This document shows, one piece after another, positions 3,516 through 64,000 of a stretch of DNA of 64,000 nucleotides. The DNA comes from Candidatus Woesearchaeota archaeon. GTDB lineage: Archaea; Nanobdellota; Nanobdellia; Woesearchaeales; JAIPIC01. The notes under the pieces are model-generated. The model was not told the DNA's origin and searched no databases. It saw only the letters and a program-made list of their open reading frames with translations. Position 1 is the first letter of the stretch. Every line of letters starts with the position of its first letter. The position numbers and the translations under genes were made by a program. Location of the stretch: NCBI GenBank assembly GCA_021734865.1, contig JAIPIC010000001.1, forward strand, positions 4,166 through 68,165. The letters are read 5' to 3'.

Positions 3516-3519
3516 TAAT

Positions 3520-4794: not shown

Positions 4795-4818
4795 GGAAGA
4801 ATAACTCTTCCTTTTTTT
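4795..4818 (+). terminator. hairpin ggaagaATAACTcttcc followed by T7 tract between the surface-protein gene and the first permease (possible intra-operon attenuator)
   Basis: Read directly from the sequence: a 5-bp stem, then a T-run, 4 nt before the ATG at 4822. Confidence 0.3.
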
Positions 4819-4821
4819 AAT

Positions 4822-6045: not shown

Positions 6046-6057
6046 AAGGTCCATAAA

Positions 6058-9243: not shown

Positions 9244-10569
9244 ATGAATGATACATTTATGCCATATGATCCACCTGACTGTCCAGAATTGCTCAGGCAT
9301 GTAATAAATAGTTTCAGGTTCGATGGAAAATTTGATCCATATTCTGATAATACTATGAGACTTATAACACATTCTGCTGACTTGGCACACCAATTCCACA
9401 AGGGTCAGACAAGAATCACTGGAGGCCCATATACAACCCACCTTAAGGAGGTTCTGGGTGTCATTTTTGATTCATTGGATGAATATAATCAGAAAGCTAA
9501 CCATCATGTAAATCTTCCAGCACACGTAATAATTACTGCAATCCTGCACGACGGGGTAGAGGATGAAGAAGGCCTGAGTTTTTTGAACAAACAGCTAAAA
9601 GAAAATGGGAAAGGTCCAAAAATTGCAGCTTCCATAAAAGAAAGAATTGTGAATAGGAGAGCAGAAGTATTGGATACAAGGATATCAGAGCTATCTGATA
9701 TTGTCGAGCAGACAATCCCACATGAGAAACATCCTGTCTATGCAAATCTAATCAAGAACGTTAAAAATAGAGTCGACACACTGACAAGATATGAAGAGAA
9801 ATATCTTTTTCATGAATCGATGTACAAAATCTTTGATATATTACCAGACCGCCAAGATGATCTCACTTCATTGTTGGAAAGGGCTCTTGTCAAACTTAGT
9901 GATCGAGTCGCCAATCAAGAGGACAATCGTAAGAGATATGGTGAAACAACCGGTCAAGAATTGCAGACCTACCTAGAACAAAATGAGATGCTTATCCAGC
10001 GATATGGTAATATTGATCTATTAAGCAATCAGAGTCTGTCTTATGCCAAAGCGACTCATTCTATATGGAAATCAATTATCGTCCTGGATGCCATAGATAG
10101 AGGGTTGATGTCGAAATACAAGCATTTGATTGAAAATGATAATATTGAAAATGATAATAATCAGTACCATAAAGCGCTGCTCGGGATGATTGTTAATGTC
10201 AGACAGAGATTATGCAGGTCTGTCTCAAGACAAATAACATTCATTAAGACTCAAATTGGAGAAAATTATTTAACTCAAATTGACAAAAGTAATGCCTACA
10301 GTAGAGCATACGATTCTAAAGATTCATTTAAGCCCATGCTTCAGCGATGGCAGAAGTCAGATCAGTCCAAATCATATCTCAAGGATCTTGAAGCCAACCC
10401 AACTAAAAGTGATCAAACCTTTAGAGATATGATCAGTTTTCAGTCCCTTGTATCAACATATTACTTTAGGAAGGATTTTACATCTAAAATGACGGTAGAT
10501 GTGTACAGTTGTCTTGATAATCCTGCGAATATTCTAGTGTTACCAGCACCTAAACATCACAGAACTTAG
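9244..10569 (+). CDS. HD-domain phosphohydrolase, RelA/SpoT-type HD (small-alarmone-hydrolase-like) with a C-terminal domain of unknown function
   Basis: HKGQTRITGGPYTTHLKEVLGV...ITAILHDGVEDE matches the H...R..G.PY..H...V......AALLHDvvED signature of (p)ppGpp-hydrolase HD domains. There is no SD (leaderless-like), and a TATTTAAAG element lies about 35 nt upstream. Confidence 0.55.
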   Translation: MNDTFMPYDPPDCPELLRHVINSFRFDGKFDPYSDNTMRLITHSADLAHQFHKGQTRITGGPYTTHLKEVLGVIFDSLDEYNQKANHHVNLPAHVIITAILHDGVEDEEGLSFLNKQLKENGKGPKIAASIKERIVNRRAEVLDTRISELSDIVEQTIPHEKHPVYANLIKNVKNRVDTLTRYEEKYLFHESMYKIFDILPDRQDDLTSLLERALVKLSDRVANQEDNRKRYGETTGQELQTYLEQNEMLIQRYGNIDLLSNQSLSYAKATHSIWKSIIVLDAIDRGLMSKYKHLIENDNIENDNNQYHKALLGMIVNVRQRLCRSVSRQITFIKTQIGENYLTQIDKSNAYSRAYDSKDSFKPMLQRWQKSDQSKSYLKDLEANPTKSDQTFRDMISFQSLVSTYYFRKDFTSKMTVDVYSCLDNPANILVLPAPKHHRT

Positions 10570-11053: not shown

Positions 11054-11227
11054 ATGGTTAGAGTTGTAGTAAATAATGGGCAATACAAACTTACGATCCC
11101 TAAGGATCTAGCTAATTCTAAAAGGTGGACCAAAGGAACCAAGCTTCGATTTGTAGAAGATCTCGACGGGCGAGTTTTCATTGTCGAACTCGAAGGAACA
11201 GAAAAGGTAAATGATGAACTGGAATAA
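11054..11227 (+). CDS. AbrB/MazE/SpoVT-family swapped-hairpin DNA-binding protein (57 aa). Not in the ORF track.
   Basis: Manual translation gives MVRVVVNNGQYKLTIPKDLANSKRWTKGTKLRFVEDLDGRVFIVELEGTEKVNDELE, which fits the looped-hinge-helix pattern (x-IPK-x-R...G..L.....DG.h.I). The stop at 11225-11227 overlaps the giant ORF start (11211) by 17 nt. Confidence 0.55.
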   Translation: MVRVVVNNGQYKLTIPKDLANSKRWTKGTKLRFVEDLDGRVFIVELEGTEKVNDELE

Positions 11228-14200
11228 TTCAGATATACAGGGAACTGGACCTAAGATAAGTCCAACTAGGGTGCTAGTATTTGCCATCTTAATAGGGGCC
11301 ATAATGCTTGCGGTATACTACTCTGGTCCAAGCCACATTGCCCGCTCACTGGAGATATCACCAGCATTCGACACTGAGAACAATAGGCTTATTGGTAATA
11401 TGCTACTTTCTGAGGGGGACTTTGATGCGGGCACACATATTCGAGTCACATTGGATAACAAGTCAGCTACGATGACCACTGGATTACTTAGGGAGCTTCT
11501 TTGGCCTAGCGCAGGATACGGATACGGTTATGGTTATTTAGATATGGCTCAATTGGACCTATCGATCTTCGATTTGAATGTGTCAGAATCAGGAATTTAC
11601 ACATTACTTGTGGAGATTCTTAAGGAAGGCAATGTTATGTTCAGTGTTTCATCTGAACTAAATATAACCCTTAACAAAGTACCAGCTTATACTGGAAATT
11701 TAAGCGTTATCAATCTTTACGTCAATGAGACCACAAGCATTGATGCTTCACTCATTTTCTGGGACCCAGACGATGACAACCTGACTTTTGGCTGTTTGGC
11801 TGGTCAGAATATCCAATGTCAGACAAGCACACCAAACTACTATGTAGAGATTGTACCTGAAGATAATTTTACTGGTTCATCATGGATAGTCTTCAGCGCA
11901 TCTGACGGGCTGAATACCAGCACTAGTCCAGAGATTAGGATAAATGTCCTTAATGCTCTTGAAGAGACTGATCAAGGTGAAGATATGCAGTATACAGCTA
12001 CTGTAGGTAAACCTGTTAAGTGGAAGAAACGGATCATTTCTGACGGATCTGATCTGAATGTGAACATTCCTCCTGAAGCAAAATCAATCAGAATAGTAGA
12101 TAAGACTGAGAAAATGAATCTGGAGGATGCTACACTTGTCACTGTAAGTAATGTCTCAATGGAACTTGATGAGCATGAAAATGTGGTTGAATATATCGAG
12201 ATCAAAAAGGAGATTGAATCTGGAAATAGGGCTGCAGATGAATCAGAAAAAAGCAATGAGGACGCAAGAATATCTGGTGATACCACCTCTGCAAGTGAAA
12301 TGGATAAAATAAGAGATAACAGTACTAAAACTAAAGAATTGCAACTGGAAGAACTTTCTAAAGAAATCAACATAAATATTAATGATGTTATCGAGGGGAT
12401 TGCTCCTTCTTCAGAGGAAGAGAATAAATCAAAAGAACTTGCTGTTGAAAACAATAAAACTTCACTAATAGATTTGTATTATGAGACTCCTGCACCAGAG
12501 ATGGATGAAGAAGTCATAGTAAATACGAGTGAAGTATTTAGGAAAGACGTCGTTGTGCATTCTAATGCTTCTCTGCATTATAACAATATCACTGCATTCA
12601 GTGATGTACCTGAAACAAACAGGTCAAAAGTCCGCTTATACTGGAAGATCAATGGTTCCAGAGTTGATGTAACAGATGACGAAAGATTCAATGTGAGGCT
12701 TACTGACACAAATAATAACCTGCTTATAGACCGGATTTACTGGACCGTACCGCAGCTTAGTGAACAGTTCTTTGAGATTTCACTTGATTTATTGGACTTA
12801 AGGATAGTGGATACAGCAGTTTCAAGCAACTGGACAGTTTTCTTTGAAACATCCGAGAGTTATGAGACACTTTATATTAAAAATCTTAACACAGAAGATA
12901 TTTCTTATAACTCCCTTTATGTTTGGACAGGTTCGACATGGAATCCAAAGGACCAGATTACTAACCCAAACGTAGGAAATAATTATACCTTGTCTACCCC
13001 ATGGAATGGCTCAGAATATACAAAGGGTAAGATAGTCTTTACAATTACAAATGTAGAGAATTATAGATTGAATTTCACATTTGGAACCTTGAGTACGATA
13101 GCTGAAAACTTTGATTACTATGAATATAGAATAAATCCAACAACACAGAAATTCAGTATGGATTTTAATAATCTGGAGTTTTATTATTATCTCTGCTCAT
13201 TCAATGAAAGTTACTGGGAGTGCAATCCTTCAGTTGGAGATTATGGATTTAATGGATTCAACAGAACACTAGACGGAAATGAATCTGAGCATTATCTTAG
13301 GCTTCCTAAGAATTCGTCTGTAATGAGCATGAATATAACTGTTGAGCCGCTGTGCAATACCTCCCTATTTTCGTACAGTTATGCTGGCAGTGTTGGAGAG
13401 ACCCATGTCACGTCTGCAGACATAAGTACAGATGATCTTGAAGAAATGCTTGTAAGTTCAGACACTCTGCTAAGAACGTATGATACATCAAAGATTAACA
13501 TATGGAATTTCACAAGCCCATACACGATAAATGATATTGTATCTTCAAATATTGATGTTGATTCTGCATTTGAAGAGATTATTGTTACCGCAGACCTTAA
13601 TCTATTTTTACTTAATGCATCTGGACAGCAAATATGGAATATCAGTGATGAAGTTGATTATACTTCTGCCACATCAGCTATTGTCAAGACAGTTATCAAT
13701 AGAACAAGATACGATCAAGAAAACGCTTCGGGTATTCATTGTATTGGATGCGACAACAATAATTATGAGGTTAGGTATTCTCTGCCTTACACTGTTTCAG
13801 ATCCAGTATCATCCATGTGCTTTATTGAAGCAGCATACAATTATCAGGGAACAACACAAGGCAACTTAAAATTCTTACTAAACAACACGGAAAGAACCGT
13901 CAATAAATACAATATATTCACTTCCAATATACTCAACTACAATAACTCTGATGGGGTCGCAGATAATTTTGAGTGTTTGGGATGTAATTACAGTATGCTT
14001 AGGCAGCAGTTCAACTTTGAGTTTGATCAACCTGTAGATGCAAATGATTGTTATATTCAGACTGGCATCAATTACGTCGGCTCTAACAACCCAAATATAT
14101 CTCTCGAGATTCAGGATGTGACATATGATATTGATGAATCAGTCATAACAACAGAGGATGAACAGAATTATTATAATTTTACAGGAGTGGGCCCTACAGT

Positions 14201-17200
14201 CTCAAGATGCATAGGTTGTCAGGATTCAAATACCAGAGTTATCCATAATATTGATTTTACCTTCGAGGACAAATCAGATAAGTTTTGCTATGTGCAGTCA
14301 CCATTAAATTACAGGAACAATAAAAATGGAAGCCTTTTCTTTGAATTAAACAATACCATTTACAATGTCGATACATCAGCAATAAGTCATACAAATGAAC
14401 AGAATTTCAACAGGACTGATAATATTGTTGACAGTATTATGTGTGTTGGATGTTCTGACTATACAGATTCTGCATTTACACTTAATTACAATATCTCAGA
14501 TCCAGTAAATGCAAACTCATGCTATATCGATGCATTGTTTAATTTTAAGGGGAACAATTCCGGAAACCTCACACTGGAGCTCAACTCAAATACATATGAT
14601 ATTGATGAAACAAAGATCACAGAAAGCAAAGTTATGGAGTACACATATGATAATTATCTTAATACATCTTCAGGCCAGATCGATTTCAACCAGTTAGGAT
14701 TCCTTGGTCTTGTGGAGTTCAGCCTTGAAGATATAACTTTCCCTGAACCTATGGCAGCCGGTGAATGTTATGTGAAGACTGCTCTTTGTTATAATGGTTC
14801 TAAGACAGGTCAACTACTTCTTTCATTCTCTTCTGGGGGTGAATATGAAATCAATAATACAGACATTGTGAAATGTGAAACTAAAGATAATTTTTCATGG
14901 ATAGAAACAGAAGTCCCATGCGCCAAGATTAACTCTTCCAGTACTGTGTCTATGTATTGTAATGATAGTTGCTCTGGTGCAAACTATTACAGAATGATGG
15001 TAGATAATAATACTGTTGCTCCTAATGCTGTTTATATTTCTGATGAGTGGTATTATCCAAATACGGACTTTAATTATACATATATGCTGCACATCTGGAC
15101 CAATGCTTCATATGTATCAAACTGGACCAGGACTGAAGTCAATTGTTCAGACGTAACACCAGGATTGAATGTCACGTTCAGTTGTTCAGATTGTACGGAT
15201 GATAATGCATTCTATTTAATGGCTGACCAAAACTCAAGTGGTAATTCACATTACAAAAAAAGCAGTACCTGGTATCCTGTCCTTTATGCGGACCATCTTG
15301 TGAGGTTTTATACAAATACTTCGCTACGATACGATTATATTGACACAGAAGTTGATTGTAATGATCTTAATTCTTCCACGAATGTTTCATACTTCTGTGT
15401 TGGTTGTACAAATGTGTCAAATTATCAGATCATGATGTCAAGTAGCAGTTCAGGGAACGCGTCTTTTTCAATCAATAATGGTACAACTGTATCCACAATA
15501 GATGAAGAGGATACTCTAACAAGGTTAAGGATCAATAACAGGCTTTTTGACTGGATTTATACTGAAGTGAATTGTTCCTTGATAGAGAATGCTGTAAATA
15601 TCACTTATGAGTGCGATGGATGTAATGATTCTAACAATTTCCACATCATGACTGATAGTAATTCTAATGGTAATTCGTTCATTTCCAGGTATAATGGTTC
15701 AGTATTTGCAAGTACTGCAAATGATATCATGAGTTTTATGTACTCAAACACGTCATTAAAGTATTCTCTTGTAAACACACCAGTTGGTTGTGACGACGTT
15801 GTTGCTGGAAACAATATCACATTCTTTTGTGAAGGATGCGATGATGATAATCACTATAATGTCTTGTCGGATAACGCTTCCAGAGGAAATACAACAGTAT
15901 CAATTGATGGGGGAAGTGAATGGACCTCAATTGAAAGTTCTGATCAGATGGTCAGTATTCTTGCATGGGAGAATAAAGGATATGATATTATTGTTGCTGA
16001 TGACACATATAATTATGTGAGGTCATTCAATTCCAGCGCAGATGGGTTATGGAATAAGAGCGTATTAGGCGACATATATGATCTAAGTGCAGCTGATATC
16101 AGTCCAGACTATGATGGTAATGAAATTCTGGTCGGAACAAGACTTAGAGCATATCTCCTGAACGCCAGTGGAGATGAAATCTGGCAGATGAGTGGGTGGA
16201 TTAAGAGTGTTGCTGCAGGAGAACTGGATAAAGGTGTTAGAGGTGTTGTTGGGAACAATAATGGAGAAATATATGAGTGTGACAGTATTGGCTGTACTCT
16301 TAAGTATTCATGGGGCACATCTATTAATAAGATTGGAATAGGGAATATCACAATTGACGATGGCAATGAGATCATTATCACAGGAGCAAATAAAAAAGTT
16401 CTTGTGCTGAACAATAGTTTTGGATATGTTTCAGAGCATACGATCGAATCAAATGTTTATGATATGCATATCGGAGATGTAAATCTTTTTAGCGGAGAGG
16501 AAACCGCTATAGTCGCACAGAATAATAATGTCGAACTGTTCAGTTTCCAACTACCTTATAACATTGGAATTGACGCAGGAAACACAGATGACGTTTTCAG
16601 TTACAATGGTTACTTAAGTTCCAAGACCATCATCAATGATGGAGAGTTAGTTAATGCTATTAATGCATATTTGGATACTTGTAATGATAAGTTATGTAAT
16701 GTTCCTTTCAATTTCACTGCTCAATCCCAGTCAAGATTCAACATAAGAGGTCTTTCGGTATCATTCAAGTACAATGCTTCAGGAGATGTGCAGTATGAGG
16801 ATAGTGCATGGAAATGGTCAAAAACAGATGATATTGATGTTGATGCAGAATATTACTATCTCGCAAGGAATTTCTCATATGGTCTGCCTGCTATTCCTAT
16901 ATATGTAAGAGAGATTACACCATTCACTGGGCTTGGTGATAATTTCACATTCAATCTTGATGTATGCAACAGTTCAGGTGCGTATGCTGATCTGGGTTAT
17001 ACATCACCAAACGGTATCAGTACTAATTGCGATAGGGATTACTTTATCAGCAACACTATACAAAGAGCAAATGATTATCTCTGGTTTAATAACAGCGCAA
17101 GAGAATCTCCTGTCATTGCAATGGTTTCAGAAGGGGACAATGGCAATAACCATGAATATACTGTCAAACTTGTCAGAAATACAGAATATATGCCAACGAT

Positions 17201-20200
17201 CTTTACTAATGTTACGTATGCTATTGCCATCAATGAGAGTAAATTCTTATCAGAAGTTGACCTTTTTGTTGATTGGTATGGAAACGGAACAATGTATAAT
17301 ATAACACCAGAAAATGCAAGTGCTAACTGTAATAGTTCATCATCTGATTATGAGATTAAACTTATTGATTCATATGAATTCTATGTATGCAAATATGATA
17401 ATGATATAAGTGGAATGAATGAATATTACAAATTCAAGCAGCCGCTGGTCAATACAACGGGAAATATTTTTGCGAATGCCACATACTATATCCATGGTCT
17501 GACCGCATCCGTTCCTCAGCTAAGCAATTTCATTGTCTCACCAAATGAATCACAATGGGGAGAATATATCAACTTCTCTGTAACTGTAACTGATGATGAT
17601 ATGACTAATGTCACCCTATTAGTATATGGTGATGAGTGGTCTGAAGTAGCAACATTAAACACATCTTTTGGAGGCGGTCAGCTTAGCTTCAATGTCTCGT
17701 CTAATAAAAGCTGGGTGGGAGACAGTGTAAATTATAAGTACAGTTTCTTTGATTATAACACTACAGACATTTTACATAATAATACCAATACTAGTGTACA
17801 GACCAATTTTGCTATACTTAAACACAATATTTCATACCAGACTGTAACAGAGAACTTGTCGGTGATAAATAGATATGAACCTAATCTAGATCATATTGTC
17901 ATCCAGATTAATGACTCAACAAATAATGGCCTTGTAACAGATGATGTTATATGTAAACTGTACTTTGATAACACTCTGAAGGACACGGATCTACCTAATT
18001 CATCAGCCCAATGTGCTTTCAATATTAATGGTCTTCTTCCTTCGATAGGTAACCACACTTGGCAAATCAGGATTGCAGACTCTCTCTATTATTATAACCA
18101 AAACAGTTCGGAATTCATTATTACAGTAGGTGATAATCTATCCGCCACTATCCTTCTTGATCCAATCAATGGTACAGAAGTTTTCAGGCACAATGATGCT
18201 ATTGGAACAAAAGAGATCAAGTGGAACGTGTCTGACATTGAATATATGGGTGGAGGAGAAGCTGACAATGCATTTATCAATATCAGTTGGAACGGAATAA
18301 CACAAAATTATACTGAAGTGAATGCTTCTGGTACAAACGGTTCATTCAATATTCCAGATGATTCGACACCGGGTATGACAAATGAGATGGTCATCAATCT
18401 GATCAAAGAAGATAACTGGAATTATACCAAAGTATTCTTTTATAATGTCTCCGGTGCTATCTACCCAATTATCGTAGAACCAGAAAATTATACTGTCGTT
18501 TCACAAGCAGGAGAGAACTCTACTGTGACACTTAAGATAAATGTCACAGATGACAATGGAAATTCTGTCGATGGTGTTGTTGTTGCATGGAATCTGCCAA
18601 ATGGAACATGTCTGAATGGAACTGGCAATGAATCAGACGGAATATACAATTGCAGTTTTGATCCGGATAATCTTGAACCCGGCAATTATTCTTGGAATGT
18701 AACTGTCTCAAAGAATAATTATGAAACTAGGACTTCAGAGTTAGGTTATATTACCTTATCAGGAACCGTATTTGAAGCAAATCTTAGTTTAAATCCAGAT
18801 ACTCCTGGACCTCTTTTCAGGTATGATAATGAAGTCTCTAATGCAACTCTTTACTGGAACATAAGCAGTATTTTATTCTCAGGAGATCCTCTGGATAATG
18901 TAACATATAATCTCTCATGGAGAAGAATTCCAAGTCAATGGAATCATACAATAGGATATTGGAAATTTAACAGAAATACGACTGATGATTCAGGCCCTCT
19001 AGGAAATGATGCTATGTTAGGTAATGGTACTTTAAGTGCACAGCCAATCTATAATGAGACTGGGTTTAGGGATGGTGGCTACAATTTTGATGGACTTGAT
19101 CAGTTTATAATGGTCAATGACACAGATGATTTCAATTGGAAAACTGGAGTCACGTTTTCAGCATGGATCAATACTTATCAATATGATAAGGCAGGGGGTT
19201 ATGGTCTTGTTCATAAACCAAACATGACATCTCTGCGTTGGATACGGGATGTAAATAAACCAAGCTTCATGGTTTACCTTGAGAATAAATGGATAAGTGT
19301 CAATGCGACTGTAAAGGTCGATAGATTCATGTGGACTCATCTAGCTGGAACTTACAATGCAAATGATCAGACCTTGAGGTTATATATCAACGGGGAACTT
19401 AACAATGTTGAACAGATTGCAGGTGTTACTGATTTTAATATAGCTCGGGTTAATGAGAGCTTATTCTTTGGTGCCACAAGAGAACGTCAGGATCTTCTTA
19501 ATGGTAGTCTTGATGAAATTAGGATTATAAACCGGACTTTGTCGGCTCGTGAAGTATACCATGAATACTTATTAGCGAATTATTCAGTGTTTAGCAGCGG
19601 CATCTGCAATTCAAGCGGCGCAAATGGAACTTTTGATATACCGGACTATGAATCTTTGGGAACTGACCATAATCTTTCTGTAATCCTGTCAAAAGAAGGA
19701 TATGGAAATACAGAATTCTCAAGACAATTCACAACATATGGGACATTTATCACTCAGACTATTGGACCGGATAATTATTCGACAGTCAATGCAACAGGCG
19801 GAGATAACATAAATCTTAGAGTTAACGTTAAGGATGACCTTGGAAATAATGTCAATGATTCAACTGTGACATTTAATACACCTCTTGGTGTATGTATCTA
19901 TGGGAATCTAAATGAGAATGGGGGATATTATAATTGCACTTACGATCCTCTGGATATTGTTACGGTTAATACCTATGAGTGGAATACAACCATCTCAAAA
20001 GAATACTTCAGGACAATCACTCCTTTAGGCGGTATTATCAATATCAATACAAGCTTAACGACAGTTGTAAACCTGACACCAGAATATCCTGGTCCAGCAT
20101 ACAGGCATAACAATTCTATATACAAAGACTTGTACTTTAACCTTAGTAGTATTTTAGATGCAAATGGCGCTGTTGACATTGTAAATATGTCAGTCTACTG

Positions 20201-23200
20201 GGACGGAGAATTGTATAATTCAAGTATTGTCAATTCATCAGGAATGGCAGGGAACATTTCTATTGATGATAACCTCAGCCTAGGCAACCACACATTTAGT
20301 GCAGTATTATCTAAAGATTATAGATATTTACTCAACTACAGCCGCAACATTCTCATATATGGGACTCTCAACATTACAGTTCTTTCGCCTGCAAATGGAT
20401 CAATAATGGCACAATCAGGAGAGAATGCCACAAGAGTGCTTAGGATTAGGGTCCAGAACATGCTTGGTGATAACATTACAGGCGCAAATGTAACATTCCA
20501 CACTGCTCCAGGCGAATGTGTAGGTGGTGTTCAGGAAGAAGCAGATGGGTTTTACAATTGTACCTTTGATCCTGATACTATTACACCAGGAAATTACACT
20601 TGGAACACTACTGTATTGAAAGAGTTTTATAATGACACAGTGTCAGACTCCAACCTTATTACTATTCTTGGAGGTAATATGAGTGCAAATGTGAATGTTA
20701 CTCCGGAATCACCTGGTCCGATATTCAGGAGTAATGAGAACTCAGAAAACATCACATTATCATACAATTTTACTAATATTACGTCAGCAGGCGATAATCT
20801 TACGGATGTCACTTACAATGTCACTTGGGATGGAGTAACTCTCCTAAGTGGAACCTGTGGTAGTGAAGGAATAAATGGTACTTACGATGTAGATTATGAT
20901 GAAGCTCTTGGTTCCCATACGTTCAAGATAGTACTTACTAAATCCAATTATGAGAACTTCACTTATTCACGAACTTATGATGTGTTTGGTAATATGTTCA
21001 TAAGTTTTGTTGGTCCAGCAAACGGGACAACAGTTAATGCAACTGGGGATGATACAGAGGTACTTATTGTCAATTTGACGAATGACCTAAATGAAACGAT
21101 GGATGGTTCGACCATTGTCTTCAATACTCCAGCTGGTATATGCCTTTACAATACACAGAATCCAGGTGATGGTTATTATAATTGCACTTATGATCCTAAT
21201 AATGTTATTGTACCAAGCAATTACACGTGGAATGCCACTGCGTCTGAATCTTATTATAGATCTGTAACTTCATCCAATAATGTTGTGACTATCATGTCCT
21301 TCATATCAAGCAATGTTGCAACCCTTCCTGTAGAATTTGATGAAGTGCATAGGTACAATGGTTCCGACTGGAGGAAGACCGTCGATTATAATGTTACCAA
21401 TATAATCAATAACATGGGTGCTGTTGATGTCAATTATTCTGTCATGTGGAATGGAACAATAATTGACTCTGGTAATACAACAGGGTATGGATTCAATTCC
21501 AGTTTTGATGTCGATGATGGTCTGGATACTGGCAACCAATCCCTAATACTCACTTTATCTCAGGACTTCCATCATTCTAAAACTTACAACATATCAATCA
21601 AGGTTGTTGATACGATATTCATTGACCTCTTGTCACCTGATAATGGGACTATCGTAATGCAGATTGCTCCAAATGATACTGTTGTGCTCAAGGTCAACAT
21701 CTCAGATCAGCATAATAATACTCTGGATGGTCTGAACGTTACTTTTAATCTTCCGTCAGGATCATGTATCGCTTCGGGCGATGAAGGAACAGGAGTATAC
21801 AATTGTACTTTTGATCCAGACGACATGGTTCCTGGGAATTACACTTGGAATGTGACTGTAACAGATCTGGACTATGAGACAACTAATTCATCAAGCAGAT
21901 ACTTACTTATTGGTGGTGGACAGCTAACTGCTGAGACATCCGTGACACCGGCTGCTAATAGTGTTGCATATAGGGATAATAGTTCGAATGTCAATAATGT
22001 ATCATACAGTATTTACGATATTAATACAACCTATGGAGAACTTGAAGATTACACATGCAGGATATTTTACAGTAGTATCCCTTACTCTGATTCTTTAGTA
22101 ATTTTCTTTGATTTTGATGAGAATTCCACTTATGATCTAACTGGAAGAGGCAACAATGCAACTCTTGGAAATGGTTCTGTTGAAACAATACCAGAGTATA
22201 ATATCAGTGGGAGGATTGGTGGAGCATATGATTTTGATGGTATTGACGATTACTTGAATATAAGTGACAATGATTTCCTCGACTTTGGAAATGATAGTGG
22301 TTTCTCAGTTGAGATGTGGTTAAAAGTCCATAGGAAAACTTCAGAGAACTGGTCCACAATATTTAGAAAAGGAGGATGGGGTGGTGACGGACAGAATGTA
22401 GGTTATAATATGTTCATCGAAAATGCTTCAGATAATCTTGTTTGGAGACTGAAGTTTGCTGACTCCTCTGATGCTGTAGTAATTAGTTATAATCTTTCAA
22501 GTGAGAATGTGTGGGATGACTGGATTCATGTTGTAGGCACTGTTCTTCGTGGAGAAAATATGAGCATTTATGTGAATGGTGCACTCAGAGACAGTATTGA
22601 CATCTCATCATATTCTAATATTAGCATTTCAAATAATGAGGATTTAATTATAGGTAAAGTCAGTGATTCTGCATATTATTATAACGGATCAATTGATCAA
22701 TTCAGATTATATAACAGATCACTGTCAAGTGAGGAAGTGTATCACAATTATTTAGTAGGAACCCAGATTGTAATCTTGTCCGAATCATGTGATATTAATG
22801 GTTCAAGCGGAGAATTTGACATACCGGACAATGAGACAATTGGTCAATATAATATCACAATAGATAGTTATGAGGACTTATATGATAATTTTTCATTTTC
22901 TCAGAATTACTCTGTTTACGGCAACCTTTTTGTCAACACGATAGAACCAGCAAATGGAAGCCAGGTCAGTAATACTGGTTCAAGTACAACTATTGGTCTT
23001 ATGGTCAATGTAACAGATGAATTGGGAATACTTATCAGAGATGCTTCAGTCAGATTCAATCTTCCATCTGGCTCATGTGTTGGAGCAATAATTAACAACC
23101 ATGACGGAACTTACAACTGCACTTATGATCCGGATATTGTCGTCCCCGCAAACTACTCGTGGTCTGCAAATGCATCAAGGATTTATTACAGCAGTGCTGT

Positions 23201-47200: not shown

Positions 47201-50200
47201 AGTTTATTCTTTAGAAAAGAATAACACAAATGCTGTAGTGATGAGCCTTGAACCAATTAATTTCACAGTAAACGCATCTGATTTAAATATTTATGAAGTT
47301 ATCATAAATAATGTAAGCGCTACCTATATAGGAGATAATATTTGGTCATTGACAACAAATGCTTCTAATCTTTCATGTACAAGTGGAGATAACATCAGTT
47401 GTCAGGTCAGAGCAGATGTATATGATTTTGCTGGTAATGTAAATTCAACAAATATATCTATAGTAATTGATGACATGGCACCAGCAATTAACTGGTTCAT
47501 TATTAATAGAAGTAATAATATATCCCGTAGTGATGTATTAGTCAATATATCAGCAAATATCTCAGAAAATAATTTGTATTCAGTAACTGTTAATGGTAGC
47601 TTATTGAGTCAGCTTGCTGATTCTGATATATACTTCAACCTTTCAAATTTAAGCACATATGGGTGCTCCGGTGGTAAAAATACTCCTTGTATACTTGGAT
47701 TATCTGCAGAAGATATCAGTGGCAACCTAAACACTTCCGAATTGATTGTATATATTGATGACTATCTGCCTCTGATTCCAGTAGCTAATGAACACGGACT
47801 AATTTCCAATGTGTCTACGAACATCACTAGAAGTGACAAAGTCATAAATTTCTCAGTAAATAGTTATGATGAAAATTTTAGATATGTTACTTTGAATGGG
47901 ACACTTATGGAACTGGGAGCAGGAAATATAAGTCATGTGAATCGCACTGTCCAGCAATTATGCGGTGCCTATGATGTAGAGAATGAAACATGTATATTCA
48001 CAGCTTTTGCGTACGATTATGCTGATAATGTCAATTCTTCGACTTATAACATTGTCGTTGATGATATTCCCCCGACTGTCGAATCTTTTGACTTTAACGA
48101 TAGTGACAATACAACAAGAAGCGATATAATGCATAACTTCACTGTGTACGTTACAGATCCATTCCTAGTCAATGTTACTATTAATGACACAGAGATGGAA
48201 AGAATCGGTGAAACAGATTATTGGCAATATATAGGAACTCCAGGAAACTTAAGCTGTAGTAGTGGGACAAATGTTATCTGCCTACTTCGCTCCACTGGAA
48301 CTGATATTGCTGGTAATGAAAATTATATTGATATGGAACTCAAGATTGATGAGGGACATGTTAATATTACTGATTTAGATGTTAATGTCACACGAAAACT
48401 CGATTGGAGTCAGCCAATCATGAAAGTTAATTCAACTGTCAATTTCACAGTATTAGTAAATGATGATAATATAGTTAATGTCACTTTAAATGGTACAGAG
48501 ATGAATCAGGTTGGAGATTCATTTATGTACAGTTTAGTGACTACACCGTATGCAATGAACTGCCAGACAGGTGCAAACAATAATTGCTCGTTCCAAGCTT
48601 ACGCCATAGATGCAGCAGGGAATAATAATGTAACTGATCTAATAATAACCATTGATGATGTTCCTCCAGTTGTACTAAGGGCATATTCAAATGACAGCGA
48701 CAACTACTCGCGAAGCGATGTTGATGTAAATTTCAGCGGAATTGCAGATGACCCATATATGTATAATCTCACAGTAAGGGTCAATGGTATGGATCTTGTT
48801 AATGACAGCTGGCATTACGTAGCAAAACCAGTGGATTTAGGATGTCCTATTGGTGTTGAGACCACATGTGATGTGTGGTTTGAAGCCTTTGATATTGCTG
48901 GCAATAATATGTCCAAGCTCTATATTATTAATGTTGATGATGTTCCTCCAACCGTTACAGATCTTACGGCCACCAATGCTCAGGAGGGAAGCCAAGAGAC
49001 AGGATATTTACCAGTTGTCAGTCCGCTTGAGAACACATCCTGGGCTGTGACAGCTTCAGATACAAACACATTTACATTGAATTTCTCAATGAATAATGGA
49101 ACTGAACATGGTAACGGAACTTGGGACTTCATGACATATTCAGGAAGTGGGAACATATATTCACTCACAATGAATGTCATAGATTATCTTGCCAAATCAA
49201 ATAAATCATATGAGTTTGTTGTTGTTGGTGAAGATTATGCTGGAAATAAAGCAAACTCAACTGAATATGTTTATATCGCAGAATCTCAACCGAGCGTCCA
49301 GAATGTTACAGTCGATAAGGTGTTTGTTGAGACAAACTATGAAAATGTAACGCTCAATTTCAGTGTTCAGAGTTATGTGCAGGTCATAAATGTTACAATT
49401 AATTTCAGCAATTCTGGAAATGAGGAATTTTTAACAGATAATCTTGGAGCAAGATCAGGCAATTTCAGTTATAATTTCTCACCTAAGAAAACAGGATATT
49501 ACAATGTGACAATAAGAGTAGTAAATCTTGCTGATTCAGTTGGGACGTCTATCAATGAGGAATTGTTCTTTGCTTCTGGAAGCACAACAGGTGTGATACT
49601 TTCTACTGTTGATGAGTGTAATATTTGCAGTGAGAACAATCTAACCTTTGACAATATATCAAGGGATTCTCCTGGCACACTTGTACTGAATATGACGTTC
49701 AATAATACTGGACGGTCACCTATGTACGGTACTGACTTGGATTCACCTATCACAGGACCAACTGTATCTTTCAATCTTCCAACGGGTATCTCAATTAATG
49801 CATCTAATGATAAAATCCAGTGTGATGTCATTGCTCCAAATACATCATGTAATTTTTCAATTAATGTGACAATCAATGTATCAGCAAAGGTTGGTATAAA
49901 ACAGATTATGGCTATTGGCTCGTGGAGCAATTCAGATTATTCACCAGGGTCTGTTACAAACGAAGATGCAGAACTTACACTTAATGAGTTCAAGGAACTG
50001 GAAATTCTTGAAGAAAGTCTATCGCATAACAGGGTTTTCTATGGGAGGAACTTCACAATAGGCAATTTCAGTCTGGCGTCTTATGGTAATATTGCCCTTC
50101 ATGATGTTAATATATCAGTAATCAGTGGTAATCTCAGTTCAGATAATGTAACGCTCAATTCATATTATATCCAACAGTTGAATATCTCTCCTGATGCAGT

Positions 50201-53200: not shown

Positions 53201-56200
53201 CAAATGCGAACAAACAAGTAAAACAAGGGATATTGCTTCAGGTACATGGGATATAACCTGCAAGGCACCTGAGATTCTATATAATCCTATACTCAATGAT
53301 CTTGAGCTTATTGTTTATCTTGACAATATAAGTTCAGATGGGATGGTTGGGAGAGGAAGTATCATTGACATAGAGGATAATGCAATTTTGTATAAGGATA
53401 TTTTGCCTCCTGTTTTCCATAATGTAAATATCTCAGTTGAGGATTTGAACACAGATAGGTTAGTCAGAGCAAATATCACTGATAATTCTCAAATCGATGA
53501 AGTCATCTCCTATCTCATGAACCCATCCGCTGAAATGGAACAGACTCAATTTACTGATGGTGACACAGTAGATTTCTTATTCAATGGAAGTCTTCAAAAT
53601 ATTACTAGTGTGCAGTTACCTGTAAATGCTACAGTAACAGGAGCAGTATTTAGAATAAATGTGTCTCCATTGGATATGGAATATTTAAGCAATATTAATA
53701 TCAGCGTAGGAGATGAAGTGATTTGGAGTCATGAAGGTTATCTTGGTAAACAATCAGAAATTCAGGCATATGAAAATGGAGAGTTTGTGGATAAATCAGA
53801 TGTTCTTGTCGAAGATCTTCAGGAACAGCTTTATCTTAAGCTTCCAAGAGGTGCCATGGTAACTGGAGTTGAATTAAATCTTACTGGAGAAACAGATCAA
53901 GAAGTCCTTGAACGCCCTGTTGGAATAAGTAGGGACAGTGATGGATATTTGTATATTGTTGATAATTACAAAAGTAAGATATTTGTCCTCAATCCGGATC
54001 TAACATACAATAGTACAATGGGAAGGTATGGAAGTGATACTGCAAGTCTGGATCATCCTGAAAATATTGATATAGACAATCTGAATCAGGTATATATTGC
54101 AGACAGGAATAATAATAGGATTCAAGTTTTAGGGTCAAGGAATGGGTCGGACCAAGTAAGTTATTTTGGAGAAGGGCAAGAATATTCTGGTAAGATGGAT
54201 TCAACAACAATAAATGTTGGTTATATTTCAAATGTTTCAGAATCCGGACTGTACGTAAGTCCAATCCATGGTGTATCTAGTTTAAGTGACTCAAAGGTAA
54301 AAGAGGGTAATACGTCATTATTGACTACTATGGATGTGATGAATAATTATGATCAGTATAATATCACTTGGTTCTTTGCTGATCAGTCCTTTGATCTTAA
54401 CTCTTATGATGAGATTAATCTATATGTATATCTAAATACTGAAGGTATAAATTTAACATTAAATATCAGCGATGTTGAGGGGTGTGTCTATAAGTATAAT
54501 GTACCTTATGTTACCGATGAATGGTCAAAAGTCTCAGTTGATCTCCTTAACTATTCAGTTGAAGGTTGTGATCTCTCAAGGATAAATGAATTGCGAATAA
54601 TTGCGCAGAGCAATACAGACAGTTTGACAAATGTCGAGTTTTACCTTGATAATGTTACATTAATTGATATCTATGATCCTTTCACCTTCAAAAGAACTCT
54701 ACTGTCTCACAATGAGACAATGAATTATCCAAGGGGCGTTCATTATGGATCCGATGGGCAAACTTATGTGGCAGACACATTTAATGATAAAATTAGAGTA
54801 TTCAACAGCAGTTCTGATGAAGCTTACACTCTGCAAAATGATATTGATCTAATGTATCTTCCTTCGGATGTCTTAACAGATAATGGACTGATATATATTG
54901 CAGAGTCAGGTAATAATAAGATAAAGGTTTATAATTATTCCAATGGTACTACGACAGAAGTAAGGTCTCTTGGACAAGAATCACCAGAAAGATACAACTT
55001 CAGCAGTCCAAGAGATATCGAAATCAGTGATGAATTACTGTACGTGCTTGATTCATATAATAATAGGGTCCAAATATTCTCATTGGACTCTGAGTTTAGT
55101 TACTACGCTTCCATTGAGCTTAATTTCTCAAGGCCTCAGGGATTGTATGTAGACGATCAATCAGTAATAATTGCAGATACATATGGCGGACGAGTGGTAA
55201 TTTTCAACAAGGTTGGCGGCGGCTATGTATATAATACTACTATTGATATGTTCGGTGAATTCTATCCTACAGGAATTAAGGTAGACATTGGATCCGATGA
55301 AGGCGAGTTCTATGGTAATTTTGTCAATCTTGAGTACTATAATCAATATTGGCTCGACAACAAAGTATCAATCAATGATAATGGGACGGTCAATGCAATA
55401 AATGCATATATTTCAGATTGTGATATGATCAGTGACACTGCAGGATATCAGTACTGCCTTGTACCAATCAATATAAGCTGTCAAACGACTGGAAAACTAA
55501 ATCTCTCTGATTTATTAGTACAATATGATTATATCAGTGAAACAAAGCAACTTAGAAACGCCTTTAATGATTATTTGTATTCTGTTAGTGGCTTAAATGA
55601 TGATTTTGTGAATGTCAATATAACTGTCAATGTCAATGGAAGCGGAATATTTGTGATAGATAGGCTGTCTCTTCAATATGCTGAAGAAAATACTGAGAAT
55701 TCATACAACTTAAATCAAGAAGACCTTTATGAATCGTCATTAATAAATCTGGATGAGTCCGGTGAATACACCTTATTGATTTATGCGACCGATGCAGCTG
55801 GACAAAAAGATTCATTCAGAAAGTGGTTTGACAATGAGAAGTTGCTGACTTTAAGTAATGAGATTGTCAGTAATTCAAACAATATATCTGTGCTAATGGA
55901 CTTCATGAGACCAAAGACAAATGAGAGTATGTATAGATTCATGGCCAATAACAGTAATGTTACCGTAAATGGGTCAATATACAATAGATCCTACAATATC
56001 CAGTTAAATATAAGCCTGCCAACAATATATAATCATGAGATTGCCATTGATGAGCAATACGTTGAGATCAAGGACGCTGAGCTTAACATTGAAATTGATA
56101 ATGAAACAAATGAGTCAATAGTCCGCGATCCTATCAAGGTTAAGGCAGTAAGCTTGAACACTCTCTACCTTCCGCTTACAATAAAGGGCTTTGAAGATGA

Positions 56201-63784: not shown

Positions 63785-64000
63785 ATTTAAATCAAATAAT
63801 GGATCAGGGAAGTGGATTTAATTGTTCTAGTTGTTATACTAAGAAGAGTAATTATATCTTCATTTTCTTGTTGATATTATTGTGTATTCCATTGGTTCAA
63901 GCAGATTCTAATCTTTATGGGCACAAATACTCCTCTAAACCTGCCCCTAATAATGATTTCATTATGCAGATATCAAATGCTTCAGAGATGAATAATTCCT
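63781..64000 (+). CDS. N-terminus of a secreted protein (partial, runs off the window)
   Basis: ATGA overlap with the HTH gene stop. Manual translation gives MNLNQIMDQGSGFNCSSCYTKKSNYIFIFLLILLCIPLVQADSNLYGHKYSSKP..., which has a hydrophobic core plus a VQA-like cleavage site. It is not in the ORF track because it has no stop. Confidence 0.35.
   Translation, partial: MNLNQIMDQGSGFNCSSCYTKKSNYIFIFLLILLCIPLVQADSNLYGHKYSSKPAPNNDFIMQISNASEMNNS

What the first reader, a model, noticed from the sequence alone, without database searches (positions are those of the whole stretch)
11211..58640. Single uninterrupted 47.4-kb ORF encoding a 15,809-aa surface protein
In DNA this AT-rich, random frames hit TAA/TAG/TGA every few dozen codons, so a 15,809-codon open frame is strong evidence of selection for coding. 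The product has an N-terminal signal anchor and a mosaic of at least eight distinct repeat or domain families that all read as extracellular folds. These are Cys repeats, FG-GAP-like, LamG, discoidin, Ig/HYR-like, NHL and CPEDC modules. The repeat copies are substantially diverged at the nucleotide level, which argues against recent amplification or an assembly artefact. Proteins this size are rare in any domain of life and typically mediate cell-cell or cell-surface attachment.
Basis: seen in the sequence. Interest (0 to 1): 0.9.

Follow-up and report, generated by a model that had tools for sequence, protein, structure and literature searches.

The report
Giant archaeal surface protein with ATPase
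A real, uninterrupted 47-kb gene of a tiny symbiotic-type archaeon (Woesearchaeota, DPANN) encodes a 1.76-MDa membrane-anchored surface stalk that ends in a cytoplasmic HerA-like ATPase; it is an unusually large member of the already described 'SPEARE' family, which is thought to mediate attachment to and exchange with host cells.

Summary
The ORF is real: 11211-58640 (+), 15,809 codons, no internal stop. A second assembler reproduces it as an open gene up to window position ~58,169.

Its layout is an N-terminal signal/anchor helix, a ~15,380-aa acidic ectodomain rich in glycosylation sequons, one TM helix, and a cytoplasmic HerA-clade P-loop ATPase with a helical hairpin.
- The ectodomain holds Cys-repeat modules, 3 LamG domains, 12 Invasin-like Ig domains, a rod of ~57 back-to-back 97-aa Ig-like domains, and NHL propellers.
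- The last ~670 aa are a full paralog of the next gene, a 699-aa membrane ATPase that is translationally coupled to it.

This is the architecture published for nanohaloarchaeal 'SPEARE' giant proteins.
- The protein is collinear over its whole length with two 7.9-kaa nanohaloarchaeal members.
- It shares their rod repeat and their ATPase.
- The core module is widespread in DPANN archaea.

Verdict: a new and very large member of a known kind. At 15,809 aa it exceeds the largest published SPEARE I found (12,127 aa) and all 140 newly returned representatives among the 150 best matches (max 7,878 aa). Its function (a host-contact tether coupled to a membrane motor) is inferred, not shown. FG-GAP, discoidin and HYR calls were not reproduced.

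The parts
11211..58640 (+). Giant ORF, 15,809 aa (1.758 MDa, pI 4.06)
   Evidence: a second assembler gives an open gene up to window ~58,169
11256..11330 (+). N-terminal hydrophobic helix (aa 16-40): signal peptide or signal anchor
   Evidence: Kyte-Doolittle scan; whether it is cleaved was not testable
11718..12860 (+). N-terminal module (aa 170-550): a Big_9-like Ig domain plus a ~300-aa domain shared with two other large proteins (P0124, P0125)
13725..14867 (+). Cys-repeat family A, 5 copies of ~75 aa (aa 839-1219)
   Evidence: own HMM; sequence; also present in nanohaloarchaeal P0142/P0144
14895..15959 (+). Cys-repeat family B, 5 copies of ~72 aa (aa 1229-1583)
17850..26705 (+). Array of 11 Invasin_D3/Big_1-like Ig domains at ~210-aa spacing, interleaved with other beta modules and 3 LamG domains (aa 2214-5165; LamG at aa 2627-2782, 3676-3843, 4113-4269). 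A twelfth Invasin-like Ig domain lies downstream at aa 13176-13253.
   Evidence: Pfam; own HMMs
32319..49277 (+). Rod: ~57 back-to-back copies of a 97-aa, two-Cys Ig-like beta-sandwich (aa 7037-12689). No Pfam family passes its threshold.
   Evidence: best PDB 2yn3, E 2.7e-4; SiiE BIg by my recollection; pLDDT 96.6
53853..55673 (+). NHL-repeat beta-propeller region, probably two propellers (aa 14215-14821)
   Evidence: Pfam NHL E 4e-29; PDB NHL propellers, two stretches; own HMM
56613..56759 (+). Two CG(D/N)xxC...E...NCPEDC motifs (aa 15135-15183); the same motif opens the ectodomain of the short paralog
   Evidence: CPxDC is conserved across the family
56763..57440 (+). Conserved membrane-proximal ectodomain: two beta-sandwich domains (aa ~15185-15410)
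   Evidence: AF2 model; Foldseek WxLIP/RbmA-like; conserved in related loci and representatives
57459..57521 (+). Transmembrane helix (aa 15417-15437)
57606..58400 (+). Cytoplasmic HerA-clade P-loop ATPase (Walker A aa 15494, Walker B aa 15619, REFRKWG aa 15646)
58425..58637 (+). C-terminal helical hairpin / coiled coil
   Evidence: AF2 model, helices 629-697 of the 699-aa core
58164..58463 (+). Gene-conversion-like tract shared with the paralog (nt identity 96-98%; 87-96% identical codons, against ~50% elsewhere)
   Evidence: longest exact repeat 106 nt at 58341/60437
58637..60736 (+). Paralogous short membrane ATPase (699 aa: signal peptide, CPxDC motif, two beta-sandwiches, TM, ATPase). Its start overlaps the giant's stop (ATGA). 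Identical to NCBI MCF7860615.1.
60733..62823 (+). 696-aa soluble protein of low-complexity and coiled-coil sequence, coupled by an ATGA overlap; not conserved next to relatives
11054..11227 (+). 57-aa ORF overlapping the giant's start by 17 nt; weak AbrB/MazE-like match (possible regulator)
   Evidence: PF04014, E 0.04, below threshold

Best explanation
The gene encodes a SPEARE-family giant cell-surface protein of a Woesearchaeota (DPANN) archaeon.

Shown:
- Topology and parts. One polypeptide runs from an N-terminal signal/anchor helix through a ~15,380-aa acidic ectodomain to a single TM helix and a cytoplasmic HerA-clade ATPase with intact catalytic motifs.
- Ectodomain order: distal head with Ig-like, Cys-repeat and LamG modules; a ~57-domain Ig-like rod; NHL propellers; and a conserved membrane-proximal double beta-sandwich. 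The excess of N-X-S/T sequons suggests heavy glycosylation.
- The last ~670 aa duplicate the adjacent, translationally coupled 699-aa membrane ATPase.

Inferred:
- The lectin, propeller and Cys-rich head binds glycans or proteins on a host cell.
- The rod, if extended, spans roughly 0.2 um or more, on the order of the size of the cell itself.
- The cytoplasmic ATPase oligomerises into a ring, as HerA, FtsK and VirB4 do, probably together with the short paralog.
- ATP hydrolysis at the membrane is thereby coupled to the contact site. The likeliest role is to move a macromolecule (DNA or protein) across the symbiont membrane. A less likely role is to remodel or retract the tether.
- The protein reached 15.8 kaa mainly by ancient, now diverged amplification of the rod module (57 copies against 13-17 in collinear 7.9-kaa relatives), plus added Ig/LamG and NHL modules.
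For: Reality of the gene.

Topology:
- Only two TM-like segments exist, aa 16-40 and 15417-15437.
- The ectodomain has 920 N-X-S/T sequons (5.98 per 100 aa, against 323 expected from shuffling). The cytoplasmic part has 1. Ectodomain net charge is -1366.

ATPase:
- Pfam DUF87, E 7e-12.
- The PDB profile search finds HerA chains first (8wiv 1e-8, 4d2i 4e-8).
- The AF2 core model has pLDDT 83.9.
- All ATPase-level matches in the Foldseek top 50 are HerA.
- Walker A/B and the REFRKWG motif are invariant across the family.

Paired paralog:
- 61% identity over 673 aa and 91% in the ATPase, with an ATGA overlap.
- The big+small tandem recurs in 10 other loci that carry two scored ATPase copies (a further one, L001). 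The SG9 and Nanohalobium pairs are orthologous big-to-big (0.89) and small-to-small (0.90).
- There is a conversion tract between the two copies.

SPEARE membership:
- The published description has the same layout, including the downstream second ATPase.
- The ATPase is 52-56% identical to SG9 SPEARE-locus proteins (P0093 = AQV86_02330; L065).
- The rod-repeat HMM hits the SG9 SPEARE ORF 10 times (best E 4e-21).
- The protein is collinear over its full length with the nanohaloarchaeal proteins P0142 (7,878 aa) and P0144 (7,852 aa).

Family breadth:
- 567 stretches in GTDB species genomes.
- 421 cluster representatives at E<=1e-30.
- Most members carry the core at the C-terminus of 1-8 kaa proteins.

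Experimental support from the literature:
- A SPEARE protein was detected by proteomics in Ca. Nanohaloarchaeum antarcticus.
- The paired membrane-anchored HerA-clade ATPases CedB and CedD are required for DNA import in Sulfolobales.
Against: - There are no expression, localisation or activity data for this protein or organism.
- The substrate and direction of any transport are unknown.
- No polytopic channel (VirB6/CedA-like) or pilin gene lies in the window, so a translocation pathway is not evident locally.
- Ring formation and hetero-oligomerisation with the short paralog are untested.
- I could not decide whether the N-terminal helix is cleaved (free stalk) or retained (giant loop anchored at both ends).
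- About a third of the ectodomain (aa ~250-840, 1584-2100, 5200-7037, 12690-14215, 14822-15130) has no assigned fold.
- The second assembly probably used the same reads and breaks inside the ATPase duplication. The exact 3' junction (58,169-60,513) therefore rests on one assembly.
Confidence: 0.78

Rival explanations
1. It is a passive giant adhesin or envelope scaffold. The ectodomain does the job (attachment, spacing, glycocalyx). The ATPase serves only the protein's own biogenesis, anchoring, tension sensing or retraction, and transports no cargo.
For: - Most of the mass is adhesion-type modules: LamG, Ig-like, NHL.
- The rod resembles the BIg arrays of giant bacterial adhesins (2yn3; identified as SiiE from memory).
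- No channel or pilin genes lie nearby.
Against: - The ATPase core is the most conserved part of the family (52-69% identity across phyla, against 22-25% for ectodomains).
- The core also exists as short stand-alone proteins with almost no ectodomain (12 of 41 complete loci, 571-699 aa). This points to a function beyond servicing a giant stalk.
- Its nearest characterised relatives are translocases.
Confidence: 0.13
2. It is a bona fide component of a type IV secretion or Ced-type conjugation-like machine. In this view the ATPase is a VirB4/VirD4/CedB-D orthologue, and the giant protein is the 'straw' proposed by Reva et al. 2023.
For: - The literature proposal.
- Pfam TrwB_AAD_bind is above the whole-protein threshold (22.2 and 30.5 bits against 20.5).
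- The best NCBIfam hit is CedD.
- A T4CP-like topology (TM-loop-TM-NBD) would result if the N-terminal helix is retained.
Against: - The Pfam match covers only profile positions 12-56 of 387, which is the P-loop region.
- CedD scores 40.6 bits against a cut-off of 600, and VirB4-like CD1110 scores 28.6 against 325.
- HerA outranks VirB4 and TrwB in every sequence and fold search.
- The window has no VirB6/CedA-like polytopic protein, VirB2-like pilin, VirB3/8 or relaxase.
Confidence: 0.06
3. It is an artefact: a chimeric or collapsed assembly, a read-through fusion of a giant adhesin gene with the first of two tandem ATPase genes, or a non-functional relic.
For: - The two ATPase copies share a 106-nt exact repeat and a ~300-nt near-identical tract. 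This could confuse short-read assemblers.
- The Logan contigs break exactly there.
Against: - The ectodomain-core junction lies about 1 kb upstream of the duplicated tract, in sequence only ~12-47% identical at the aa level to the paralog. It is inside the Logan contig.
- No remnant signal peptide or other hydrophobic segment occurs between aa 40 and 15417.
- The same fusion is found in dozens of other genomes and in over 100 cluster representatives.
- No other nucleotide repeats exist in the window.
- The sequon bias and codon usage indicate a functional coding sequence.
Confidence: 0.03

Closest known systems
SPEARE giant proteins of Nanohaloarchaeota and the EX4484-52 lineage. Examples: Ca. 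Nanohaloarchaeum antarcticus NAR1_1133 (5,998 aa); SG9 (8,553 and 4,057 aa); Ca. Nanohalococcus SVXNc_0300 (9,409 aa); MAG KA27 (12,127 aa). Sources: PMC6642349, PMC10266531, PMC8470020.
   Same: - N-terminal signal or TM helix, with the bulk of the protein extracytoplasmic.
- LamG plus dozens of ~100-aa tandem Ig-like domains and beta-propellers.
- A single TM helix, a conserved cytoplasmic P-loop ATPase and a terminal coiled coil.
- A second ATPase gene immediately downstream.
- Homology was shown here for the ATPase (52-56%), the rod repeat (HMM E 4e-21), both Cys-repeat families and the overall domain order.
   Different: - The host lineage is Woesearchaeota rather than Nanohaloarchaeota.
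- At 15,809 aa it is about 30% longer than the largest published member I found, and twice the largest of the 140 newly returned representatives among the 150 best matches.
- It has ~57 rod repeats against 13-17 in the collinear relatives.
- Its NHL propellers lie on the membrane side of the rod and were found in none of those 140 representatives.
- Ectodomain identity is only 22-25%.
CedB/CedD, the paired membrane-anchored HerA-clade ATPases of the crenarchaeal DNA-import (Ced) system (PMC11868833)
   Same: - Two paralogous HerA-clade ATPases tethered to the membrane by a TM helix.
- CedD is the best NCBIfam hit.
- The system acts on cell-cell contact.
   Different: - The score is far below the family cut-off (40.6 against 600 bits).
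- The Ced ATPases have an N-terminal TM and a cytoplasmic VirB4-like NTD, and no ectodomain.
- No CedA/CedA1/CedA2-like genes lie in the window.
HerA hexameric DNA translocase (Sulfolobus HerA 4d2i; HerA-NurA; HerA of Sir2-HerA and DUF4297-HerA defence systems)
   Different: - There is no room for a HAS-barrel: only ~45 residues separate the TM helix from the P-loop.
- The ATPase is membrane-tethered.
- No NurA, Sir2 or DUF4297 partner lies nearby.
- NCBIfam HerA scores are 21-33 bits against cut-offs of 800-970.
Giant bacterial BIg/RTX adhesins (Salmonella SiiE, LapA/MpIBP type)
   Same: It has a rod of dozens of diverged tandem Ig-like domains with lectin-type modules. The SiiE BIg fragment 2yn3 (identification from memory) is the best solved-structure match to the rod profile.
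   Different: - Those adhesins are exported by type I secretion and held at the outer membrane. This part is my own knowledge.
- They have no TM helix plus cytoplasmic ATPase.
- No RTX or T1SS signal was found here.
Type IV coupling proteins (TrwB/VirD4) and VirB4
   Different: - They rank below HerA everywhere.
- The Pfam match is confined to the P-loop region.
- No other T4SS genes lie in the window.

Membership tests
SPEARE giant proteins (DPANN) | Conserved cytoplasmic C-terminal P-loop ATPase after a single TM helix, homologous to that of published SPEARE proteins | tested here: met
   - 52% identity to SG9 AQV86_02330 (P0093), E 1.5e-139.
- 56% identity to the SG9 big copy in L065.
- 33-39% identity over the whole core to P0142 and P0144.
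- TM helix at aa 15417-15437.
SPEARE giant proteins (DPANN) | Most of the length is extracytoplasmic, behind an N-terminal signal peptide or TM helix | tested here: met
   There are only two hydrophobic segments. The ectodomain holds 920 sequons against 1 in the cytoplasmic part. No signal-peptide predictor was available.
SPEARE giant proteins (DPANN) | At least one laminin-G domain plus multiple adhesion domains | tested here: met
   3 Laminin_G_3 domains (E to 4e-48), 12 Invasin_D3/Big_1-like Ig domains, and NHL propellers.
SPEARE giant proteins (DPANN) | Long array of ~100-aa tandem Ig-like domains | tested here: met
   - ~57 copies at aa 7037-12689.
- The AF2 model is a beta-sandwich, pLDDT 96.6.
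- The same HMM hits the SG9 ORF 10 times and P0142 14 times.
SPEARE giant proteins (DPANN) | A second paralogous ATPase gene immediately downstream | tested here: met
   ORF 58637-60736 has an ATGA overlap with the giant and is 61% identical over 673 aa. The same pairing occurs in SG9, Nanohalobium, KA27 and other loci.
SPEARE giant proteins (DPANN) | [quoted passage not shown] | tested here: not met
   No peptidase or endonuclease family appears in any Pfam tile. Reva et al. 2023 argue that these domains are also absent from the original SPEARE proteins, so this feature is disputed as a defining one.
SPEARE giant proteins (DPANN) | The protein is made and is located at the symbiont-host interface | not testable with these tools
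   Only literature evidence exists, for Ca. Nha. antarcticus (81 peptides).
HerA clade, FtsK-HerA superfamily | RecA-like core with Walker A/B motifs, closest in sequence profile and fold to HerA | tested here: met
HerA clade, FtsK-HerA superfamily | N-terminal HAS-barrel domain and a NurA (or defence-effector) partner | tested here: not met
   The model has only two short strands between the TM helix (304-337) and the P-loop (384). No NurA, Sir2 or DUF4297 is found among the neighbours. NCBIfam HerA scores are far below their cut-offs.
Type IV secretion (VirB4 / VirD4 coupling protein) | ATPase reaches the family thresholds over its length | tested here: inconclusive
Type IV secretion (VirB4 / VirD4 coupling protein) | Accompanying channel and pilus genes (VirB6/CedA-like, VirB2-like, VirB3/8) | tested here: not met
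   None is found in the 64-kb window. The only polytopic proteins are two MacB/FtsX permeases of an upstream ABC operon. The rest of the genome was not available.
Ced DNA-import system (CedB/CedD) | Equivalog-level match to CedB or CedD, and the presence of CedA-family genes | tested here: not met
   CedD scores 40.6 and 42.1 bits against a cut-off of 600. There is no CedA-like gene.
Type I-secreted giant RTX/BIg adhesins | C-terminal RTX repeats and T1SS signal; no membrane anchor | tested here: not met
   No RTX family is found in Pfam. The C-terminus is a TM helix plus ATPase.

The most novel reading that the evidence does not exclude
The giant protein and its short paralog may co-assemble through their near-identical ATPase domains into one mixed membrane ring. 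This would form a DPANN-wide (and partly wider) contact-dependent translocation machine that is neither a T4SS nor a Ced system.
- Its reach would be set by the number of rod domains.
- This Woesearchaeota version, with ~57 rod domains and added NHL propellers, would be the longest-reaching example.
- It is possibly the largest archaeal protein with support from two assemblies.
- The conversion tract between the two ATPase genes would then reflect selection to keep the ring interfaces compatible.
Probability: 0.3. Interest if true: 0.65.

Novelty: new member of a known kind. Interest (0 to 1): 0.42.

Why it matters
How DPANN archaea, with their minimal genomes, attach to hosts and take material from them is an open question. 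The SPEARE family is one of the few concrete candidates.

This locus adds the following:
- The complete architecture (head, rod, membrane-proximal module, TM, HerA-like ATPase, partner ATPase) is conserved from Nanohaloarchaeota to Woesearchaeota at only ~23% ectodomain identity. That argues for an old, selected machine rather than a lineage oddity.
- The family scales from ~570 aa to 15.8 kaa by adding ectodomain modules to an invariant core.
- The ATPase is better described as HerA-clade than as VirB4/TraG or as a restriction enzyme.

The gene takes 47.4 kb in a lineage whose genomes are small (median 1,409 kbp for complete Woesearchaeales genomes), which implies strong selection.

It does not by itself make the mechanism testable, because the organism is uncultivated.

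Tried and rejected
- Pfam at E<=0.05 over all tiles, and at E<=1 on candidate regions, gave no FG-GAP, discoidin (F5_F8_type_C) or HYR hit.
- The region aa ~735-830 plus 1581-1790 looks by eye like propeller blades split by the Cys-repeat insert. My blade HMM drifted into the Ig family and proved nothing.
- The FG-GAP-annotated homolog P0125 aligns only to aa 183-548, not through its FG-GAP part.
- PDB sequence searches of aa 1-2500 and 4901-7100 returned nothing.
- The exact-sequence look-up of the 699-aa ATPase gene found no contig. The giant itself is too long for the cluster look-up. It did not appear in the 5.8-billion-protein search with its N-terminal 1,200 aa, so I could not confirm its own NCBI accession. 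The accession numbering leaves room for it between MCF7860612 and MCF7860615.
- orf3 (the 696-aa coiled-coil protein) is not conserved next to relatives; the only hit is L019, at 25%. I do not count it as a core component.
- The downstream 4,143-aa gene is unrelated to the giant.
- The window holds no tRNA or Rfam element.
- The rod shows no strong higher-order periodicity beyond a recurring short-long-medium length pattern.
- I considered a defence-system HerA (Sir2/DUF4297 type) and rejected it: no partner genes are present, and the ATPase is fused to an ectodomain.
Full report
OBSERVATION. The window holds one ORF at 11211-58640 (+) of 15,809 codons starting with ATG. Translation shows a single stop, at the end. 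The previous in-frame stop sits at 11208-11210, immediately before the start. At this composition (about 36% G+C) a stop is expected every ~13.5 codons, and log10 of the chance probability of such a run is about -528. The other five frames of the region contain 756-2,037 stops. Codon usage matches nine neighbouring genes (RSCU r = 0.97).

ASSEMBLY. A blastn self-comparison finds only one repeat in the 64 kb. It lies between the two ATPase-coding segments (57514-58642 vs 59610-60738, 82.7% identity; longest exact repeat 106 nt). The tandem protein repeats are therefore far too diverged for repeat collapse.
- A second assembler's contig (Logan, run SRR12088349, 59,052 bp) is 100% identical to window 1-20569 over the part I could fetch.
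- It carries a gene call of 15,622 residues that runs to the contig end. That end corresponds to window ~58,169, inside the duplicated ATPase segment.
- A second Logan contig resumes at window 60513.
- The open frame is thus reproduced, including the junction between ectodomain, TM helix and Walker A. Only the resolution of the two ATPase copies rests on one assembly, and the reads are probably the same.

SOURCE. Three flanking proteins are identical to NCBI records of a MAG named Candidatus Woesearchaeota archaeon. They are MCF7860612.1 (K9M79_00070), MCF7860615.1 and MCF7860616.1 (K9M79_00090), on a contig of 94,432 bp.

ANATOMY. A hydropathy scan finds only two TM-like segments, aa 16-40 and aa 15417-15437. 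The ~15,380 residues between them are acidic (net charge -1366). They carry 920 N-X-S/T sequons, which is 5.98 per 100 aa against 323 expected from shuffled sequence. The 372-aa C-terminal part has one sequon. This fits a heavily N-glycosylated archaeal ectodomain and a cytoplasmic tail.

From the N-terminus, Pfam and HMMs built from the protein itself give:
- A Big_9-like Ig domain plus a ~300-aa domain (aa 170-550), shared with only three database proteins.
- Two Cys-repeat families of five copies each (aa 839-1219 and 1229-1583).
- Eleven Invasin_D3/Big_1-like Ig domains at ~210-aa spacing, interleaved with three Laminin_G_3 domains (aa 2214-5165).
- An unassigned stretch (aa 5200-7037).
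- A rod of about 57 back-to-back 97-aa units (aa 7037-12689).
- A further unassigned stretch (aa 12690-14215) that contains one more Invasin-like Ig domain at aa 13176-13253.
- An NHL propeller region, probably two propellers (aa 14215-14821).
- Two CGxxC...E...NCPEDC motifs (aa 15135-15183).
- The conserved core described below.

THE ROD UNIT. It has no Pfam family above threshold. Its profile's best solved-structure hit is 2yn3 (E 2.7e-4), which I know as the BIg fragment of the giant Salmonella adhesin SiiE. AlphaFold2 on the 51-copy alignment gives a seven-strand beta-sandwich at pLDDT 96.6. Foldseek matches are generic Ig/PKD/cadherin-like folds. The 46 strictly contiguous units have no linkers, average 29% identity and never exceed 48%. 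The array is therefore old and maintained.

THE CORE. The last ~670 aa align end to end with the next gene's 699-aa product (61% identity; 91% in the ATPase). That gene's start overlaps the giant's stop (ATGA), and the gene after it is coupled in the same way.

AlphaFold2 on a 50-sequence alignment of the core (pLDDT 83.9) gives two beta-sandwich ectodomains, a long TM helix, an alpha/beta ATPase and a C-terminal helical hairpin.
- Pfam calls the ATPase DUF87 (HerA central domain), with partial P-loop-region matches to TrwB_AAD_bind and HerA_C.
- A profile search of PDB sequences finds HerA chains first.
- All ATPase-level matches in the Foldseek top 50 are HerA.
- The best NCBIfam hit is the DNA-import ATPase CedD, at 40.6 bits against a cut-off of 600.
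- Walker A (GSTGSGKS), Walker B (LLVFDEVH) and an invariant REFRKWG motif are present in both paralogs and across the family.
- The domain is thus a distinct family in the HerA branch of the FtsK-HerA superfamily. It lacks room for a HAS-barrel.

Between the two paralogs, about 300 nt (giant aa 15652-15751) are 96-98% identical, with 87-96% identical codons. Elsewhere, conserved residues share only ~50% of codons. This points to an old duplication with a recent gene-conversion patch.

WHAT IT IS. The architecture has been published for the 'SPEARE' giant proteins of Nanohaloarchaeota.
- Hamm et al. 2019 (PMC6642349) reported proteins of up to 8,553 aa that are mostly extracytoplasmic. They have a TM helix near the C-terminus, a conserved intracellular part and at least one LamG domain. 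One was detected by proteomics. Similar intracellular sequences were noted in Woesearchaeota, Aenigmarchaeota and other lineages.
- Reva et al. 2023 (PMC10266531) described 9,409- and 8,880-aa versions. These have a signal peptide, propellers, ~75 Ig-like domains, a TM helix, a 'VirB4/TraG-like' ATPase and a coiled coil, plus a second ATPase gene immediately downstream. They dispute the protease and endonuclease assignments.
- A 12,127-aa member with TM helices at both ends was reported from the EX4484-52 MAG KA27 (PMC8470020).

I tested membership directly.
- The ATPase is 52% identical to the SG9 SPEARE-locus protein AQV86_02330 (P0093). It is 56% identical to the large SG9 copy (L065).
- The rod HMM built only from this protein hits the SG9 ORF 10 times (best E 4e-21) and another nanohaloarchaeon 8 times.
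- Two 7.9-kaa nanohaloarchaeal proteins (P0142, P0144) are collinear with this protein from head to core. The matched order is head aa ~504-2569 (including both Cys-repeat families), then the mid-region, the rod, the post-rod region and the core. Identity is 22-25% in the ectodomain and 33-39% in the core.
- The main differences are rod copy number (57 against 13-17), extra Ig/LamG modules, and the NHL propellers. The NHL module was found in none of the 140 newly returned representatives among the 150 best matches.

FAMILY BREADTH.
They occur mostly in Aenigmatarchaeota, Nanohaloarchaeota, Woesearchaeota and other DPANN, and also in Hydrothermarchaeota.
- Of 41 loci with a complete N-terminus, 12 are short (571-699 aa) and 29 are 1.2-3.6 kaa.
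- 25 of 48 edge-truncated loci are open for at least 1,000 codons, and 11 reach the 10-kb flank limit.
- In 1.84 billion cluster representatives there are 421 hits at E<=1e-30. Among the 140 newly returned representatives in the best 150, the median length is 2,200 aa, the maximum is 7,878 aa, and none reaches 10,000 aa.
- The membrane-proximal module and the CPxDC motif are conserved family-wide, while the distal ectodomains are mosaic.
- Big+small ATPase tandems recur in 10 other loci with two scored copies (a further one, L001). In SG9 and Nanohalobium the big copies are orthologous to each other (0.89), and so are the small copies (0.90). The pairing therefore predates their split.

MECHANISM (inferred). 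Shown: the topology, the domain composition, the intact catalytic motifs, the coupled paralog, and family membership. Inferred:
- The lectin, propeller and Cys-rich head binds host surface glycans or proteins.
- The rod, at roughly 4 nm per Ig-like domain (my own knowledge), would span about 0.2 um or more.
- The ATPase forms a ring like its HerA, VirB4 and FtsK relatives, plausibly mixed with the short paralog. The ring would power movement of DNA or protein at the contact site.
- The nearest experimentally characterised analogy is the CedB/CedD pair of membrane-anchored HerA-clade ATPases, which are needed for DNA import in Sulfolobales (PMC11868833).
- Against a complete local machine: the window has no VirB6/CedA-like channel or pilin gene.

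RIVALS. They are a passive adhesin whose ATPase serves only its own biogenesis, a true T4SS/Ced component, and an assembly artefact. Each is weighed in the rival-explanations section of this report. The artefact reading is largely excluded.

NOVELTY AND SCORE. This is a new, very large member of a known family in a different DPANN lineage. The gene sits in a public MAG. I found no paper describing a full SPEARE-type giant in Woesearchaeota. Archaeal proteins over 10,000 aa are reported as rare (bioRxiv 10.1101/2023.11.21.568195). A DPANN specialist would find the size, the full-length collinearity across phyla and the HerA-clade assignment useful, but not very surprising. Interest: 0.42.

Noticed in passing
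window 63781-64000 (continues in L080 3269-12311): Another very large gene starts at the window's end. It is 4,143 aa in the Logan contig, has a Cys-rich N-terminus with a signal-like helix, and shows no similarity to the giant or its rod repeat. An ATGA overlap couples it to the 157-aa ORF 63311-63784, which has a weak Sigma70_r4_2/HTH match.
   Followed up: partly
window 11054-11227 (+): A 57-aa ORF overlaps the giant's start codon by 17 nt and has a weak AbrB/MazE-like match (PF04014, E 0.04, below threshold). It may be a small DNA-binding regulator of the giant gene. A TATA-like TTTATATA lies at 10987.
   Followed up: partly
window 58164-58463 vs ~60260-60559: A ~300-nt tract between the two ATPase paralogs is 96-98% identical at the nucleotide level, while synonymous sites elsewhere are near saturation. 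This looks like gene conversion. In another genome (L063) the pair is 97% identical in protein.
   Followed up: yes
window 2339-7272 (+): An upstream operon encodes a MarR-type regulator, an ABC ATPase, a CARDB-domain membrane protein and two MacB/FtsX-type permeases. No link to the giant gene is apparent.
   Followed up: no
L048, L074, L079; L006, L013, L014, L026, L042, L067; L029: The SPEARE-type core also occurs outside DPANN-labelled genomes. It is found in Hydrothermarchaeota (including a 1.9-Mb contig of Ca. Hydrothermarchaeum profundi, with at least 3,333 open codons upstream). It is also found in MAGs labelled Methanosarcinales or Heimdallarchaeota. The latter may be mis-binned DPANN contigs or host-associated sequence.
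   Followed up: no
window 9244-10569 (+): A 441-aa soluble protein has no Pfam hit but contains an 'HDGVEDEE' motif that recalls HD-domain (RelA/SpoT-type) hydrolases. I saw this by eye only.
   Followed up: no
giant aa 7758-12184 (window 34482-47762): The rod units follow a recurring length pattern. A 92-95-aa unit with an extra Cys pair is followed by a 103-106-aa unit with an insertion, and then by one to five 97-100-aa units. This suggests ancient duplication of multi-domain blocks rather than of single units.
   Followed up: partly
giant aa ~735-830 and 1581-1790 (window ~13413-13700 and ~15951-16580): About seven blade-like segments (motif D..D...E-I-I-V ... L-L-N-x-S-G..I-W) flank the 745-aa Cys-repeat block, as if a beta-propeller were split by a large insertion. 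No Pfam or PDB support was obtained.
   Followed up: partly
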